Source of the DNA: Shigella phage Sf22
Strand: one strand, 5' to 3'
Sequence record: MF158045
Length of the DNA: 64,000 nt
This document shows, piece by piece, positions 50,756 to 56,746 of the stretch. Below the pieces are notes generated by a model. That model did not search any database and was not told the origin of the DNA. It worked only from the letters and a program-made list of their open reading frames with translations. The position numbers were made by a program, and so were the translations under genes. Each line of letters starts with the position of its first letter. Within the stretch, counting starts at the first letter, position 1.

Positions 50756-52576
50756 CTACTGGCTCATCCATTCTTTACGAAGGTCAGCATTATCTCCCAT
50801 GAGCATTTCAAAAAGCTCTTTCCAATTCTCAGGAAGTTTAACAACATCATATACTGGATTTTGAATCATCTCACGATATTCAGATTTTTCCAAAGAGCCA
50901 AGTCCCTTAATATAACGGATGCTATGTTTAGGTAGAGCATCTTTGGCACTCTCATATTCAGCGACTGTATAAAACCATTCTTGTTTTTTACCGACCTGAG
51001 CGATGATTACAGGAGTTTTGACAAAGCGAATTCGTCCTTGCTCAAACAATTCTGGCCAATTACTAAAAAATCCGAGCAGAGAAGGATAAATGCTTCCTAA
51101 ACCATCATGGTCAGCATCAGTCATAATAGCAATATTATGATAATTCAAGTTTTCAGCTTTTTCACCGAGAACTAGACCAGTGATTGCGCAAATATCAAAT
51201 AATTCTTTGTTTTTAAGCATATCTGCATAAGACATACCCCAACTGTTGAGAACTTTACCACGCAATGGATAACCACCGTGAAGTTCTTTATCACGAACAT
51301 CAATAAGATATCCGATAGCCGAATCACCCTCAGTCAAGAAAAGAGTAGTATCAGCATCTTTACCGCAAAGATTCGCTTTGATATGTTTATGAACTTTAGC
51401 TTTAGAAGCCTTTTTAGCTGCTTTAGTTTCAGCTGCTTTTTCTGCTGCCAATTTACGGGCCAAGGCAGCTTCAATAATCGGCATTAAAATTGCTTCATTA
51501 TTTAGAATAGCGCGTGAAATCTTTTTAGCATCAAGCTGAATATGACTACGAATTTCGCCAAATGGAGAAGTCAAACGCTCTTTAGTTTGAGAATCAAATC
51601 GCATGTTTTTCATATCACGGACAAACATAACGATAGTCAAACATTCTTTGACACGTGCTTTAGTTACATCAATTTTGAACTTACGTTTGATTTGTGGAAT
51701 AAGGTCTTCACAAATATCATCCATAACACAGTCAATGTGATGGCCACCATTCTTAGTGTGAATGTTATTCACATAAGTTAATTGGCGAAATCCATCCGGT
51801 GAACGACCAACCGCAATAGAACAATTTTCTTGTTCTTGAACAATAGCATGTTCATCATACTGTCGTGCATATTTCTTAAAATTGCCCTGAACCTTTTTAC
51901 CATTAAAGGTAAATTGAATATCAGGATAAACTACTGCAAGTGTCTGGAGACGATCCAGTGTAATGTCAAGATAAACTTGGGACAGCTCATTAGTTTCAAA
52001 TGACATAAAATCTGGAATGAAAGTAACACGAGTTCCTTTCCATTTTCCAGGAATAGTTTCCCAGGATTTATTTTCCATGCCATTTGAACAACGAACTACA
52101 ATATTATTTTGACCATCGCCAGTTTCACCGACAAACATCACAGAAAAAATGTTAGTTAAACTAGAACCAACACCATTCATACCACCGGTGACACGTTCTT
52201 TATCATCACCAAAGTTACCACCCGCTTTTGGAATAGTCCAAGCAGCAACTGGACCAGGAATTTCTTCACCGGTAGGTGTTTTAACCATCGCTTGTGGAAT
52301 ACCACGACCGTTATCTTCAACTGTTACTTGATTGTTTTTGATAGTAACATTAATTTTATTTGCGAATTTAAACTTAGTACGAATACCTTCATCTACTGAG
52401 TTATCGATAATTTCATCAATAAGCTTAACAAGACCAGGTACATACTGAACACTTTCCCATTTACCAAACAGAAAGCGCTCATGCATTTCATTAGCAGAAG
52501 AGCCAATATACATGCCGCTACGCTTTTTGATATGTTCAATATCGCTCAGAATTTTAATTTCATTCTTAATCATCAC
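50756..52576 (-). CDS. 39: DNA topoisomerase II large (ATPase) subunit, single uninterrupted ORF
   Basis: 606 aa GyrB-like protein; continuous, so it covers the regions that T4 splits into genes 39 and 60. Confidence 0.93.
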   Translation of the reverse strand: MMIKNEIKILSDIEHIKKRSGMYIGSSANEMHERFLFGKWESVQYVPGLVKLIDEIIDNSVDEGIRTKFKFANKINVTIKNNQVTVEDNGRGIPQAMVKTPTGEEIPGPVAAWTIPKAGGNFGDDKERVTGGMNGVGSSLTNIFSVMFVGETGDGQNNIVVRCSNGMENKSWETIPGKWKGTRVTFIPDFMSFETNELSQVYLDITLDRLQTLAVVYPDIQFTFNGKKVQGNFKKYARQYDEHAIVQEQENCSIAVGRSPDGFRQLTYVNNIHTKNGGHHIDCVMDDICEDLIPQIKRKFKIDVTKARVKECLTIVMFVRDMKNMRFDSQTKERLTSPFGEIRSHIQLDAKKISRAILNNEAILMPIIEAALARKLAAEKAAETKAAKKASKAKVHKHIKANLCGKDADTTLFLTEGDSAIGYLIDVRDKELHGGYPLRGKVLNSWGMSYADMLKNKELFDICAITGLVLGEKAENLNYHNIAIMTDADHDGLGSIYPSLLGFFSNWPELFEQGRIRFVKTPVIIAQVGKKQEWFYTVAEYESAKDALPKHSIRYIKGLGSLEKSEYREMIQNPVYDVVKLPENWKELFEMLMGDNADLRKEWMSQ

Positions 52577-52643: not shown

Positions 52644-52912
52644 TATTTAAAACGAATAGTTGAATCCTTAAAGAACAGCCCAGAACATACTGTTCCTTCT
52701 ACTTTCTGCCCAGTAGGTCCAACAGCACGAAATCCAGTATGTTGGAAATCATTTTCAGAGCAACCAAACCAATTATATCCAGTGATTTCAATATTAGTAA
52801 AACCGCTTGATGACAAAATTTTGGTTGCATTATCAGCATCAGTACATCCTGCTAAAGACACTGCTAATACTAATGCTGCGATAGAACGATTAATATATTT
52901 CATAATTTTCAC
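52643..52912 (-). CDS. Predicted lipoprotein (89 aa)
   Basis: Signal peptide with lipobox LAGC. Confidence 0.55.
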   Translation of the reverse strand: MKIMKYINRSIAALVLAVSLAGCTDADNATKILSSSGFTNIEITGYNWFGCSENDFQHTGFRAVGPTGQKVEGTVCSGLFFKDSTIRFK

Positions 52913-53280
52913 TTAAATTTAATGGCTTGAAGAAGACTAATAATTCTCAAGCGACTTCTTTCATCTTTAACTGTAAAAGAAAGAGGGTCACCAGATTTCA
53001 TAGTAATAGTACATTCAAAATCAAAATCTTCGGAAACTTCTTTGAAGAAGTCAAATTCTTCATCATAAATTAGAACATTACTCTGACAACTATGAAGAAT
53101 TTTTCCATCATTTCCGGATGCTGTACTAATCATTGTAACATTATGACCTTTCATATCTTCAACGATAAATTCGCTTGTAGATATTACAGCATTAATAGAA
53201 CCATTCCTATAAATAGCAGACATTAGATATTTCTTTTCTTCGCCTTTGCGAATACGATACTTCTTACCGATTTTAAACAT
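52909..53280 (-). CDS. Hypothetical protein (123 aa)
   Basis: ORF track. Confidence 0.5.
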   Translation of the reverse strand: MFKIGKKYRIRKGEEKKYLMSAIYRNGSINAVISTSEFIVEDMKGHNVTMISTASGNDGKILHSCQSNVLIYDEEFDFFKEVSEDFDFECTITMKSGDPLSFTVKDERSRLRIISLLQAIKFK

Positions 53281-53461: not shown

Positions 53462-53887
53462 TTATTCCTTAAAGTGAGCTTTCAACATCTGATACAAGGA
53501 CCATGCCTGTTCATTATTTTCAATAGTAACTTTCATGACTGGGAATTCTGTGAAATCTTCTATTTGTTCTTGCTCTTTCTCTTCCTGCTCTTGCTCTTCA
53601 ACTGCCTGATATGGATTTTCCACTTCATCAAAGAACTCGGCTTCGTTAGTAGAGAGCCAGATAAAGTTTTCGTCAAGGATATCACCATGTGTTGCATATC
53701 CAATTGTGCCAGTAAATGACATAATTTTAGTAGGACGACCAAGATGGTCAACATCTAAAATTTTAAAAGGATGCATACCTAAACGTCGTGCATAAATTCC
53801 ATTATCAGTATGGTCTTTAATAAAAGCTTCTTGAGCTTGTTTATTTTTAAATTGATACCATTTATTAACTTCAAATTTAATAGCCAT
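53462..53887 (-). CDS. Hypothetical acidic protein (141 aa)
   Basis: ORF track; Glu/Gln-rich central linker. Confidence 0.5.
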
Positions 53888-54102: not shown

Positions 54103-54208
54103 TACAATTTCCTCATTAATTAAACATTGGAGCGATACGTTTCAGAAGAGTAGCAGCACCTTTAGCGAATTTTACATCATGAAAAACAGTTTCTTCTTCT
54201 GTAACAAC

Positions 54209-54385
54209 TCAAACTTTAATATTTTCACAATCCCAATTTTTACGAACAATCTTCAAAAGCTGCAGTAAATCTTTACATTCAGCAATATCGATAACACATC
54301 CACGAGAATCTTCCATTATCGCACGATAACCGTAAGCCATACCATAATCATTAAAAGATTGCTCGATGATAATTAAGTTTTCCAT
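54209..54385 (-). CDS. Hypothetical protein (58 aa; start moved to MENLIIIEQ)
   Basis: Conserved leader TTGGAGAATAAAATG. Confidence 0.45.
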   Translation of the reverse strand: MENLIIIEQSFNDYGMAYGYRAIMEDSRGCVIDIAECKDLLQLLKIVRKNWDCENIKV

Positions 54386-54409
54386 TTTATTCTCCAAGTT
54401 GTTTTCTGT

Positions 54410-54450
54410 ATCAGTAGTTGATATTGATATAGTACCATAATCAACTACTG
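54410..54450 (-). promoter_or_regulatory. 13-bp perfect inverted repeat (ATCAGTAGTTGAT / ATCAACTACTGAT) bracketing a TACTAT -10-like element
   Basis: Arms separated by 17 nt; overlaps the conserved early-promoter/leader module. Confidence 0.4.
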
Positions 54451-54482
54451 ATGTATATAGTTTTATGAAAAAATTTTAAACT

Positions 54483-54974
54483 TTATGCATAGCGAGCTTT
54501 GCTGTAGTGTTTAATCCAACTTTCAGGAATGACTTTGTATGTTCCTAAAAATACCGCGTTGTATAACTTAACGCCATCTTCTACCCATTGATCAGTAATG
54601 TATGCACACATAGCGCGAGTACGGTTAACAACACCTTCCTCACCTTCAGTAAATTCAAACTCATAAGGAGCAACGAACTTGATAGCTTGACCGAGTTTCC
54701 ACTTAAAGTCTACACCTACATGCGAAGTATCAATCGTTTCAATTCCTTTAGCGGGAACAGCTTTCAAAAACGCAGGCTCAAGAAATTTCCATCGAACATA
54801 ACCAAACTGAGGTTTAGACATTCCATCTTTAGGAATGATACGCACTTTTACTTCAGAATCTTCATCTTTAACACCATGTTTAAGCTGAATGCTTACGACT
54901 TCAACCAATTTTCCTGCTGCCTTAGAACGGGATTTATCAGATACACGAGCAATTTCACCGATATTAATATTCAT
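54483..54974 (-). CDS. MotB-like protein (163 aa), by position and size
   Basis: ORF track; C-terminal region paralogous to the next ORF. Confidence 0.5.
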   Translation of the reverse strand: MNINIGEIARVSDKSRSKAAGKLVEVVSIQLKHGVKDEDSEVKVRIIPKDGMSKPQFGYVRWKFLEPAFLKAVPAKGIETIDTSHVGVDFKWKLGQAIKFVAPYEFEFTEGEEGVVNRTRAMCAYITDQWVEDGVKLYNAVFLGTYKVIPESWIKHYSKARYA

Positions 54975-55047
54975 AATTATCTCTCACTTGTTAAAAAGAT
55001 TTTATACTCCACGGGACCATTATACTCTGGTCCCAAGAGTTTGTAAA

Positions 55048-55485
55048 CTAGCTTACACGAACATTAATCACTGCGCTGCGAGGAACTACAGAGTACTCTC
55101 CAGCATGAACTACGTTCAGAAGTTCAACACCATCTTCAATCCACTGATCAGTCACCCATCCACCCACAGGATTCGCGAATGGACGACGAATATAAACTGC
55201 CTTACACAGCAGATCAGTTGGATCTTCAGGTTTTTCAATTTCTGTCAATAGACTAAAATCTTTTTCATAAATAATAAGCGGTGATACCATTCCATAATAG
55301 TTTCTAATTTCAATATACATCATACCGATAAGAATTCCGCTATTAACACTAATAACAGTAAAAGGATATCCGCCAGTTAAACCAAGAAGTTCACAAAACT
55401 TATTATGAGCTGTATTAGACAGTACCGAAAAATTCTTAATTTCATCAAATTTTTTCAATTGATAAACAGCATTATTTTTAATCAT
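55048..55485 (-). CDS. Hypothetical protein (145 aa), paralog of the C-terminal domain of the preceding ORF
   Basis: Shared segment ...TDQW[IV]EDGV.L.N.V..G.Y.V.P.S... Confidence 0.5.
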   Translation of the reverse strand: MIKNNAVYQLKKFDEIKNFSVLSNTAHNKFCELLGLTGGYPFTVISVNSGILIGMMYIEIRNYYGMVSPLIIYEKDFSLLTEIEKPEDPTDLLCKAVYIRRPFANPVGGWVTDQWIEDGVELLNVVHAGEYSVVPRSAVINVRVS

Positions 55486-55495
55486 AATTTTCTCT

Positions 55496-56038
55496 TTAAT
55501 CTAAGGTAATAAAGCCTTTTAATTCGGCATGGGATTTACGGAACATTACTTGGTGCCCGCCAATGATAACTTGATCATCTGGAACTTCGTATACAGCGAG
55601 ATAAAATCCTTTAGAAGATAATTCTTCACGCTCTTCTCGTGTGAACCATCTCATCATATCATATTCGCTAGCGAAAGCAAAATGATAAAGAGCTATAAAC
55701 CATCCTGGAATATAGTGATCTACGCCTACATATTCTTCTTTCTCAAAATTAGTATTAATTGCTATATTAGCATTTTTAACTAATAATTTGTCTTCGTGTG
55801 GAAGAGGAATTCTTTTATTATCATTACTATGATGCATAAAATTAGGTCTGTCATAACCTACGTGTAATAACCACTCTTCGCTCCATGAATCTATTATACT
55901 CCTGTATGGCGTTATTTGAACACAAAGATCTCGACGTATTGTTATAGCATCTTCATAATTAAGAATACTAAACGATGATTCAACACGATAAATTTTCATT
56001 TTATTATCCTCAGTAGCTATGGTGTTATAATACCACAA
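55496..56038 (-). CDS. Hypothetical protein (180 aa)
   Basis: ORF track. Confidence 0.5.
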   Translation of the reverse strand: MWYYNTIATEDNKMKIYRVESSFSILNYEDAITIRRDLCVQITPYRSIIDSWSEEWLLHVGYDRPNFMHHSNDNKRIPLPHEDKLLVKNANIAINTNFEKEEYVGVDHYIPGWFIALYHFAFASEYDMMRWFTREEREELSSKGFYLAVYEVPDDQVIIGGHQVMFRKSHAELKGFITLD

Positions 56039-56062
56039 CTAACCGAGGAAGTAAACAACTTT

Positions 56063-56746
56063 TTATCGTTTAGTTGGAAGAGATAGAGGATCGCATTCTT
56101 CCTCTGACGGAGCATCTTCAAGACCCATAGCATATCGCAAAGCATACTTCATCATCAGGATGTCTTTCGCACAGTCATGAATAGAATCATGTGCAACGAA
56201 TCCATCTAAAGTTCCTTTTGGAAGAGGACACGTGGTCATATCACGAACAAGCAGAAGTGCTTCAATTCTGGTACGAATATCACGCTGATTCCAGAATTTA
56301 CATGGTTCTAACTTAAATGTATCAAGCTCATTCTCGGAAACGCCATTAAGACGTTGAATATCGCGAATGAGATCGACTAAAATTGGAAAATCAAACGACA
56401 TTCCACGGCACCAGCCTTGAGATTTCCAAGGATCGATATTATGTGCATTGATGTAATCGTTGAATTTTGCAATACCATCAATGGTGCTTACATCTTCATC
56501 GGATGGTGCAATATTTTTTCGAGCTTCAGGAGACTGATTTTTCCACCATTCGATAGTGCTTTTAGTAAAAAGACGATGTCCTTTTTGGCTTTTTAAATCA
56601 AATTTGATTTTAATGCCACGTGAAACTAGTTCATCGAATGATTCAACTACTTCTGGGTTAGGGTCAAAAGCAATTACAGCCAAATCAATAACAGCTGCTT
56701 TTTCACCGCTTCCCATTGTTTCAAAATCTATAATAAAATCAAACAT
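56063..56746 (-). CDS. dexA: Exonuclease A (DnaQ-like 3'-5' exonuclease)
   Basis: 227 aa, MFDFIIDFETMGSGEKAAVIDLAVIAF... with DEDD-type motif; matches recalled T4 DexA. Confidence 0.9.
   Translation of the reverse strand: MFDFIIDFETMGSGEKAAVIDLAVIAFDPNPEVVESFDELVSRGIKIKFDLKSQKGHRLFTKSTIEWWKNQSPEARKNIAPSDEDVSTIDGIAKFNDYINAHNIDPWKSQGWCRGMSFDFPILVDLIRDIQRLNGVSENELDTFKLEPCKFWNQRDIRTRIEALLLVRDMTTCPLPKGTLDGFVAHDSIHDCAKDILMMKYALRYAMGLEDAPSEEECDPLSLPTKR

What the first reader, a model, noticed from the sequence alone, without database searches (positions are those of the whole stretch)
54483..55485. Two adjacent ORFs share a C-terminal domain (MotB-like region)
The 163-aa and 145-aa ORFs share ...TDQW[IV]EDGV.L.N.V..G.Y.V.P.S... 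near their C-termini but have unrelated N-termini. This looks like domain duplication with N-terminal swapping.
Basis: seen in the sequence. Interest (0 to 1): 0.35.

Follow-up and report, generated by a model that had tools for sequence, protein, structure and literature searches.

The report
T4 motB and motB.1 paralogue pair
The two neighbouring genes are the known phage T4-type early genes motB and motB.1, which share a small C-terminal beta-barrel domain behind different N-terminal domains; this was published in 2021, so the finding is real but ordinary.

Summary
The 163-aa ORF (54483-54974, minus strand) is MotB and the 145-aa ORF (55048-55485, minus strand) is MotB.1 of a Tequatrovirus (T4-like phage, 99.4% identical to phage JLBYU22). 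They share 16/29 identical residues around TDQW[IV]EDGV. The Smith-Waterman score is 98 against 28 +/- 4.6 for shuffles, with 0 of 2000 shuffles reaching it.

Family profiles extend the homology to about 50 aligned columns (hhalign 98.1%, E 1.2e-13). That covers the whole C-terminal domain, and MotB carries a 13-15 residue insertion. The N-terminal domains are unrelated in sequence (hhalign probability 1%). MotB has a basic KOW-like barrel. MotB.1 has a GoF-type LSm/SH3-like barrel.

AlphaFold2 models (pLDDT 82 and 85) show both proteins as tandem small beta-barrels.

The shared C-terminal domain, the differing N-terminal domains and the duplication idea were published by Son et al. 2021 (PMC7827196). 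The MotB.1 N-terminal fold was published by Kim et al. 2025 (PMC12152347).

- Hybrid proteins with a KOW-type N-terminus and a MotB.1-type C-terminal domain exist. They suggest that KOW plus this C-terminal domain is the ancestral form.
- The T4 reference motB.1 (119 aa) is cut inside the shared motif by one extra G that a re-sequenced T4 clone lacks.

Verdict: already known, low interest.

The parts
54483..54974 (-). motB CDS (163 aa plus stop): T4-type early DNA-binding protein MotB
   Evidence: Pfam PF17613 over its full length, 1.1e-96, 321.5 bits. PHROG 1671, 2.2e-76. Annotated MotB in the syntenic phage Kha5h and in T4.
54768..54974 (-). MotB N-terminal domain (aa 1-69): basic KOW/SH3-like small barrel
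   Evidence: AF2 strands at 8-11, 23-30, 41-46, 56-61 and 65-67. pI 9.6. KOW assignment by HHpred in PMC7827196.
54714..54767 (-). MotB interdomain linker (aa 70-87), predicted disordered
   Evidence: pLDDT below 50 for aa 70-83. Length is variable in the family alignment A1.
54486..54713 (-). MotB C-terminal domain (aa 88-163). The part homologous to MotB.1 is aa 93-156 (54507-54698); the core BLAST match is aa 124-152 (54519-54605).
   Evidence: hhalign 98.1%, E 1.2e-13. BLASTP E 7e-10. AF2 strands at 97-110, 115-132, 135-142, 145-150 and 154-157. pI 6.8.
55019..55047 (-). Sigma-70-type early-promoter-like site (TTTACA-17-TATAAT, 11 of 12) in the 73-bp spacer between the motB.1 stop and the motB start
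   Evidence: Promoter scan. The same site is annotated as host-promoter-like in phage Kha5h. The spacer is conserved base for base in T4. This is a consensus match only; it was not tested.
55048..55485 (-). motB.1 CDS (145 aa plus stop), intact full-length form
   Evidence: PHROG 2333, 9.3e-68. Homologues named MotB.1. Sits in the position of T4 motB.1.
55237..55485 (-). MotB.1 N-terminal domain (aa 1-83): LSm/SH3-like barrel of the GoF/Frd.2 type
   Evidence: AF2 strands at 7-10, 42-49, 55-61, 67-73 and 80-83, with helix 26-37. Foldseek hit to GoF of phage VR7, E 5.1e-3, TM 0.47. Kim et al. 2025.
55051..55224 (-). MotB.1 C-terminal domain (aa 88-145). The part homologous to MotB is aa 92-141 (55063-55212); the core BLAST match is aa 109-137 (55075-55161).
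   Evidence: AF2 strands at 96-99, 107-117, 120-127, 130-135 and 139-141. pI 5.0.

Best explanation
The two ORFs are the tandem early genes motB.1 (upstream) and motB (downstream) of a T4-like phage. They lie in the 'non-essential' block 39-goF-cef-motB-motB.1-motB.2-dexA-dda and are transcribed on the minus strand.

Each protein consists of two small beta-barrels joined by a linker. The C-terminal barrels (about 58 aa in MotB.1 and about 76 aa in MotB) are homologous. They share an invariant hairpin G-[WYF]-[IV]-[TS]-D-Q-W-x-E-x-G-x-x-L-x-N-x-V, and MotB has a 13-15 residue insertion that lengthens the first hairpin.

The N-terminal barrels come from different sequence families. MotB has a basic KOW-like barrel. 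MotB.1 has a near-neutral LSm/SH3-like barrel of the GoF/Frd.2 family.

The most likely history is an old duplication of a KOW-plus-C-terminal-domain gene, followed by replacement of the N-terminal barrel in the motB.1 lineage. The shared part has since been kept by selection on the protein, not by gene conversion.

Function is inferred here, not shown. MotB is known from published experiments to bind DNA tightly and non-specifically, to co-purify with H-NS and StpA, and to change H-NS footprints. I infer that its basic KOW barrel supplies most of the DNA affinity. I infer that the shared, uncharged C-terminal barrel is a common platform for partner binding, self-association or a second ligand, which MotB.1 couples to a different N-terminal barrel, possibly one directed at RNA. 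I put this functional division at no more than about 0.35. The identity and evolutionary parts I put at about 0.9.
For: Identity and synteny: the window is 99.4% identical to phage JLBYU22. Annotation of Kha5h and T4 agrees. Pfam and PHROG hits agree.

Homology of the C-terminal domains.

Different N-terminal domains: hhalign probability 1%. The KOW-type and LSm-type N-terminal HMMs each hit only their own class. Kim 2025 describes the GoF/MotB.1/Frd.2 N-terminal family.

Two-barrel models: pLDDT 82.2 and 84.7. Both models retrieve the same tandem Tudor, Agenet and KOW6-KOW7 entries. The MotB.1 model aligns to a MotB-like protein over 137 columns, E 6.6e-6.

Ancestral KOW-plus-C-terminal-domain form: hybrids P0230-P0234, P0236, P0237 and P0240 combine a KOW-type N-terminus (1e-5 to 1e-7) with a MotB.1-type C-terminal domain. 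The clade split has bootstrap 86/100. Klebsiella phage KLB31 (Kanagawavirus) has a single such gene in the slot between the motB.2-like gene and cef.

Old duplication without recent conversion: 51/87 nt identity over the core, and 6 of 16 identical residues use different codons.

Charge: MotB N-terminal domain pI 9.6, its C-terminal domain 6.8; MotB.1 C-terminal domain 5.0.

Published function of MotB: abstracts and text of PMC7827196 and PMC6070864.
Against: The functional split between the domains is inference from charge and fold class only. Son et al. 2021 state that either domain could bind DNA, and cold-shock-type barrels bind nucleic acid although they are acidic.

The fold class of the C-terminal domain is not settled. 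HHpred in the 2021 paper gave an OB-fold like the aIF5A C-terminal domain. My Foldseek hits are weak (E 5e-4 to 1e-2, TM 0.25-0.40), and I could not superpose isolated domains.

The tree is neighbour-joining on about 60-90 columns, rooted at the midpoint, with support of 86%.

Deletion of T4 motB.1 has no phenotype in the laboratory, and MotB.1 had no effect in an RNA reporter assay. Nothing therefore shows that MotB.1 binds RNA.
Confidence: 0.85

Rival explanations
1. The whole gene was duplicated in tandem and the N-terminal barrel of one copy then diverged beyond recognition, with no domain replacement.
For: All four domains in the models are five-stranded barrels with a short helical turn before the last strand. 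Foldseek aligns the MotB.1 model to MotB-like and KOW-domain phage proteins across both domains. Both models hit the same tandem-barrel PDB entries.
Against: N-terminal profile against N-terminal profile gives probability 1%. The MotB.1 N-terminus is reported as homologous to the GoF and Frd.2 N-termini and hits GoF structurally. Relatives carry one, two or three LSm-type barrels, or a KOW barrel, in front of the same C-terminal domain, which shows rearrangement at the level of modules. SH3-like barrels are too common for shared fold alone to prove common descent.
Confidence: 0.12
2. The shared motif is chance similarity or independent convergence on a short structural motif.
For: The pairwise BLAST match is only 29 residues long.
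Against: None of 2000 shuffles reached the score, z about 15. The profile-profile E-value is 1.2e-13 over 50 columns. Nine columns are invariant across both families. A profile of the C-terminal domain finds only about 29 small phage protein clusters among 1.84 billion representatives. The genes are adjacent.
Confidence: 0.01
3. The similarity of the core is maintained by recent gene conversion between the two adjacent copies rather than by selection on the protein.
For: A 44-nt direct repeat at 75% identity links the two genes (54570-54613 and 55126-55169). A 43-aa deletion product that joins motB.2 to the MotB.1 tail exists in databases (P0243), so recombination does occur in this region.
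Against: Over the 29 aligned codons only 51 of 87 nt are identical, and 6 of 16 identical residues use different codons. The two types of C-terminal domain form separate clades across many phages.
Confidence: 0.02
4. Functional rival: the shared C-terminal domain is itself the DNA-binding OB-fold, as proposed for MotB in 2021. MotB.1 would then be a second DNA-binding protein, and the N-terminal barrels would be the partner-binding parts.
For: HHpred assigned the MotB C-terminal domain to the cold-shock DNA-binding OB-fold family, with aIF5A as closest hit. IF5A appears among my Foldseek hits (8put_F, E 1.6e-2). Conserved aromatic residues (two Trp and Phe/Tyr) lie on the strands.
Against: The C-terminal domain is uncharged or acidic and MotB.1 as a whole has pI 5.35. 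The top structural hits are SH3-like tandem Tudor, Agenet and KOW domains, not OB folds. No sequence relative has a solved structure.
Confidence: 0.3

Closest known systems
Bacteriophage T4 MotB (NP_049626, 162 aa; Pfam PF17613; Patterson-West 2018, Son 2021)
   Same: The window's 163-aa protein is its orthologue. It matches PF17613 over the full length, is about 86% identical to the T4-type cluster P0126, and lies in the same position between cef and motB.1.
   Different: Only a few substitutions and one extra residue. Nothing of note.
Bacteriophage T4 MotB.1 (NP_049627, annotated 119 aa, 13.8 kDa; intact 143-aa form P0017)
   Same: Orthologue of the window's 145-aa protein, about 80% identical, in the same position upstream of motB.
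   Different: The T4 reference entry is truncated within the shared motif (TDQWI|GRWR) by one extra G. The window's gene, the 143-aa form P0017 (seen on 256 contigs) and the re-sequenced T4 clone MZ375356.1 are intact. The last residues differ: INVRVS here, VAILN in T4.
[quoted passage not shown] 2025, PMC12152347)
   Same: The N-terminal domain of MotB.1 is a bent five-stranded barrel of this family. GoF itself (53462-53887) and a second PHROG-622 member (52909-53280) lie in the same block of the window.
   Different: GoF and Frd.2 do not carry the MotB-type C-terminal domain. No copy of it exists elsewhere in the window.
Tandem SH3-like barrel proteins: Spt5/NusG KOW repeats, 53BP1 and UHRF1 tandem Tudor, Agenet; and aIF5A (KOW plus OB)
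   Same: They share the two-small-barrel architecture. Both models retrieve these entries.
   Different: There is no sequence relation and TM-scores are low (0.25-0.40). No aromatic cage or hypusine loop was tested. This is resemblance of fold class only, not membership.

Membership tests
T4 MotB family (Pfam PF17613 'Modifier of transcription') | Full-length match to the family profile above the curated cut-off | tested here: met
   The 163-aa ORF scores 321.5 bits over profile positions 1-162 of 162. The 145-aa ORF passes the cut-off (32.7 against 25 bits) only through profile positions 118-153, so it shares one domain and is not a full member.
T4 MotB family (Pfam PF17613 'Modifier of transcription') | N-terminal KOW-like barrel with the VS-x-x-SRSK-x-AG motif | tested here: met
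   Met for MotB: the motif is invariant in alignment A1 and the KOW-type N-terminal HMM scores 6e-36. Not met for MotB.1: there is no KOW-type HMM hit and N-terminus against N-terminus gives hhalign probability 1%.
T4 MotB family (Pfam PF17613 'Modifier of transcription') | Genomic position between cef and dexA in the early, leftward-transcribed block | tested here: met
   The order goF-cef-(62-aa ORF)-motB-motB.1-motB.2-dexA-dda is the same as in Kha5h and T4.
T4 MotB family (Pfam PF17613 'Modifier of transcription') | Tight non-specific DNA binding and co-purification with H-NS/StpA | not testable with these tools
   Known for T4 MotB from PMC6070864 and PMC7827196. Assumed for this 86%-identical orthologue.
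MotB.1 group (PHROG 2333; 'Category 2' of Son et al. 2021) | MotB-type C-terminal domain behind a non-KOW N-terminal domain, encoded immediately upstream of motB | tested here: met
   PHROG 2333 scores 9.3e-68. Alignment A2. Position confirmed. Definition from the paper.
LSm-like fold family GoF/MotB.1/Frd.2 (Kim et al. 2025) | N-terminal bent five-stranded antiparallel barrel structurally similar to GoF | tested here: met
   The AF2 model has five strands in aa 7-83. Foldseek hits GoF of phage VR7 over 89 columns, rmsd 3.8, TM 0.47, E 5.1e-3. This is modest support and agrees with the paper.
OB-fold, cold-shock DNA-binding domain (assignment of the MotB C-terminal domain in Son et al. 2021) | Five-stranded Greek-key OB barrel topology | tested here: inconclusive
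   The models give five strands with a short helical turn between strands 4 and 5, which is typical of SH3-like barrels. Top Foldseek hits are Tudor, Agenet and KOW; IF5A ranks 14th with probability 0.63. I could not crop or superpose single domains.
Tudor / 'Royal family' methyl-lysine readers | Aromatic cage that binds methylated Lys or Arg | not tested
   Only a whole-model fold resemblance with TM 0.25-0.40. I do not claim membership.
Flagellar stator MotB (OmpA-like), considered only because of the shared name | N-terminal transmembrane helix and C-terminal OmpA/peptidoglycan-binding domain | tested here: not met
   No Pfam family other than PF17613 appears, even at E up to 1. The protein is an all-beta soluble two-barrel model.

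The most novel reading that the evidence does not exclude
The shared C-terminal barrel might be a dedicated docking or oligomerisation module. It could bind H-NS/StpA or mediate MotB-MotB.1 hetero-association. T4-like phages would then recombine it with interchangeable nucleic-acid-binding barrels (KOW, or one to three LSm-type barrels). That would make a modular adapter family aimed at host nucleoid or RNA-associated proteins, not a simple pair of paralogues.
Probability: 0.12. Interest if true: 0.5.

Novelty: already known. Interest (0 to 1): 0.13.

Why it matters
It matters little as a discovery. The shared C-terminal domain of MotB and MotB.1, their different N-termini and the duplication hypothesis were published in 2021, and the fold of the MotB.1 N-terminus was published in 2025.

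The pair remains a clean small example of how T4-like phages build early proteins by recombining small beta-barrel modules.

Two practical points follow:
- The T4 reference annotation of motB.1 (119 aa) probably lacks the second half of the shared domain because of one extra base. Experiments based on that sequence may have used a truncated protein.
- Single-gene hybrids with a KOW N-terminus and a MotB.1-type C-terminal domain, found in Klebsiella phages and in metagenomes, give a natural starting point for working out what the shared domain does.

Tried and rejected
1. Further copies of the motif in the window: none in any of the six frames.

2. Sequence relatives with solved structures: none for MotB, MotB.1 or the C-terminal-domain profile, even at E up to 10.

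3. Sequence relation between the two N-terminal domains: hhalign probability 1%, rejected.

4. Wider distribution of the C-terminal domain: a profile search of 1.84 billion representatives gave only 33 hits. Four long proteins (P0242, P0244, P0247, P0250; 601-842 aa) matched through 4-7 short repeated stretches. I read the sequence of P0242 only; its matches fall on repeats of the type GYQWQKNGV in a repetitive protein. I set all four aside as spurious.

5. Recent gene conversion: rejected on codon usage.

6. The 23-nt direct repeat around the two start codons is short and AT-rich. I treated it as a typical T4 translation-initiation context, not as evidence of duplication.

7. Terminator scan: the only minus-strand hit (55212-55197) lies inside the motB.1 coding sequence, and the number of hits is at the level expected by chance. 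It was not used.

The SH3-versus-OB question therefore stays open.

Full report
**What is there.**
The window is a Tequatrovirus (T4-like phage). The stretch 54200-56100 is 99.4% identical to Escherichia phage JLBYU22 and more than 90% identical to several hundred T4-like phages.

On the minus strand the gene order is 39, 39.1-like, a 123-aa ORF, 39.2, goF, cef, a 62-aa ORF, the 163-aa ORF (54483-54974), the 145-aa ORF (55048-55485), motB.2, dexA, dexA.1/.2 and dda. This matches the annotated order in phage Kha5h and in T4.

The 163-aa protein matches Pfam PF17613 ('motB, modifier of transcription') over its full length (1.1e-96), so it is MotB. The 145-aa protein is MotB.1 (PHROG 2333, 9.3e-68; named homologues). 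This 'MotB' is not the flagellar stator protein; no other Pfam family matches.

**Checking the observation.**
- BLASTP aligns MotB 124-152 with MotB.1 109-137: 16/29 identical, E 7e-10.
- The Smith-Waterman score is 98. For 2000 shuffles the mean was 28.1, sd 4.6 and maximum 51.
- In a six-frame search of the whole window each protein finds only itself and the other, at E 1e-7.
- Profile methods lengthen the match. hhalign of a 30-sequence MotB alignment against a 17-sequence MotB.1 alignment gives probability 98.1%, E 1.2e-13, over 50 columns (MotB 93-156, MotB.1 92-141).
- A joint alignment of the C-terminal domains has nine invariant columns and a 13-15 residue insertion in MotB.
- The N-terminal domains are unrelated in sequence (hhalign probability 1%).

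**Structure.**
The AlphaFold2 model of MotB has pLDDT 82.2. It shows a barrel at aa 1-69, a disordered linker at 70-83, and five strands between 97 and 157.

The model of MotB.1 has pLDDT 84.7. It shows a barrel with a helix insert at aa 1-83, and five strands between 96 and 141.

All four domains show a short helical turn before the last strand, as SH3-like barrels do. Both models independently retrieve the same solved structures: 53BP1 and UHRF1 tandem Tudor, Agenet pairs, and Spt5 KOW6-KOW7. The scores are weak (E 5e-4 to 1e-2, TM 0.25-0.40), as expected when the orientation between domains differs.

Against predicted viral structures, the MotB.1 model hits MotB.1 relatives first. It then hits a 163-aa MotB-like protein over 137 columns (E 6.6e-6), a 'KOW domain-containing protein', and GoF (E 5.1e-3, TM 0.47).

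No sequence relative has a solved structure. Son et al. assigned the MotB C-terminal domain to the OB-fold by HHpred, with aIF5A as closest hit. My models lean towards SH3-like, but I could not superpose isolated domains, so this stays open.

**What is already published.**
Son et al. [quoted passage not shown] They state that motB.1 lies immediately upstream of motB and that one gene might have arisen by duplication of the other. They also define four categories of homologue.

Kim et al. 2025 (PMC12152347) show that the MotB.1 N-terminal domain (aa 1-82) belongs with the GoF and Frd.2 N-terminal domains to an LSm/SH3-like barrel family. They also report that deletion of motB.1 has no laboratory phenotype.

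**Evolutionary detail added here.**
A profile of the C-terminal domain searched against 1.84 billion representative proteins finds only 33 clusters. About 29 of them are real, and all of those are small proteins.

Several of them (P0230-P0234, P0236, P0237, P0240) combine a MotB-type KOW N-terminus (HMM 1e-5 to 1e-7) with a MotB.1-type C-terminal domain. One such protein is the only gene in the motB slot of Klebsiella phage KLB31 (Kanagawavirus): dexA, motB.2-like, KOW-plus-C-terminal-domain, cef, goF.

In a neighbour-joining tree of the C-terminal domain there are two clades. The MotB type is all-KOW. The MotB.1 type has KOW-linked members at its base and the LSm-linked 'category 2' and 'category 4' proteins nested inside (split bootstrap 86/100).

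Longer relatives carry two LSm-type barrels before the C-terminal domain (P0044). This favours an ancestral KOW-plus-C-terminal-domain gene, duplication, and replacement of the N-terminal barrel in the motB.1 lineage. The tree is short and simple, so this is an inference.

Over the 29 core codons only 51 of 87 nt are identical, and 6 of 16 identical residues use different codons. The similarity is therefore old and kept by selection on the protein, not by recent gene conversion.

**How it probably works.**
A near-consensus sigma-70-type promoter-like site (TTTACA-17-TATAAT) fills the 73-bp spacer between the motB.1 stop and the motB start. It is conserved in T4.

Published work shows that MotB binds DNA tightly and non-specifically, co-purifies with H-NS and StpA, alters H-NS footprints and improves burst size.

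The MotB N-terminal barrel is basic (pI 9.6). The shared C-terminal domain is uncharged in MotB (pI 6.8) and acidic in MotB.1 (pI 5.0; whole protein 5.35).

I therefore infer, with confidence no higher than about 0.35, that the KOW barrel carries most of the DNA affinity. On the same footing I infer that the shared barrel is a common platform for a partner, for self-association or for a second ligand, which MotB.1 couples to a different barrel. The published alternative, that the C-terminal domain is the DNA-binding OB-fold, is not excluded.

**Verdict.**
The feature is already known, and interest is low.

Noticed in passing
L002 2719-3151 (T4 NC_000866.4 7218-7650), compared with window 55048-55485: The T4 reference motB.1 (119 aa, '13.8 kDa') is ended by one extra G (ATTGGAAGATGG against ATT-GAAGATGG) inside the shared motif TDQWI|EDGV. 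The rest of the domain is left as a 29-aa TTG ORF (MEDGVELLNVVHAGEYSVVPRSAVVAILN). A re-sequenced T4 clone (MZ375356.1) is identical in the aligned stretch except for that G and encodes 143 aa. The intact form P0017 is seen on 256 contigs, against 2 for the truncated form. This is probably a legacy sequencing error or a strain polymorphism. The motB.1 amber-mutant construct of Kim et al. 2025 was built from NC_000866.4 sequence, and the paper quotes 13.8 kDa for MotB.1.
   Followed up: yes
P0243 (43 aa, metagenome); corresponds to window about 55051-55137 joined to about 55949-55999: A 43-aa protein, MKIYRVESSFSILDYEDGVELLNVVHAGDFSVVPRSAVVAILN, joins the first 16-17 residues of MotB.2 to the last 26-27 residues of the MotB.1 C-terminal domain at a shared 'YED/IEDG' junction. 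It looks like a deletion remnant. The '29-aa RB69 peptide' (category 3 of Son et al. 2021) may be a similar remnant or frameshift product.
   Followed up: partly
Homologues P0004, P0020, P0025, P0027, P0028, P0091, P0232-P0234, P0237, P0240: A conserved short linker motif, roughly [IF]-D-[MFT]-D-[VIL]-x-[SCH]-[MT]-Y-[VGL]-x-P, recurs between barrels and in front of the first barrel in longer relatives. It is absent from the window's 145-aa MotB.1, which lacks the 22-aa insert seen in P0004. Its role is unknown; it could be a recombination joint or a binding peptide.
   Followed up: no
window 52909-53280 (-), 123 aa: An ORF between 39.1 and 39.2 has no annotated counterpart in T4 or Kha5h. It falls in the same PHROG as GoF (phrog_622, 9.4e-30) and hits goF PHROGs, although pairwise BLAST to the window's GoF finds nothing. 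It is a likely second GoF-type (LSm-like barrel) paralogue. This 2.6-kb block would then hold four small-barrel early proteins.
   Followed up: partly
window 54209-54397 (-), 62 aa: A small ORF lies between cef and motB (phrog_3720, 1.6e-28, unknown function). T4 has only a 170-bp gap at this position.
   Followed up: no
window 50756-52576 (-), 606 aa: Gene 39 (topoisomerase II large subunit) is a single ORF of about 606 aa here, as in Kha5h (605 aa). In T4 it is 516 aa.
   Followed up: no
L003 3001-4526 (Klebsiella phage vB_KM5a1-KLB31): This Kanagawavirus has one KOW-plus-MotB.1-type-C-terminal-domain gene where Tequatrovirus has motB plus motB.1. Its goF homologue is 263 aa, about twice the usual length, which suggests further duplication of barrel modules.
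   Followed up: no
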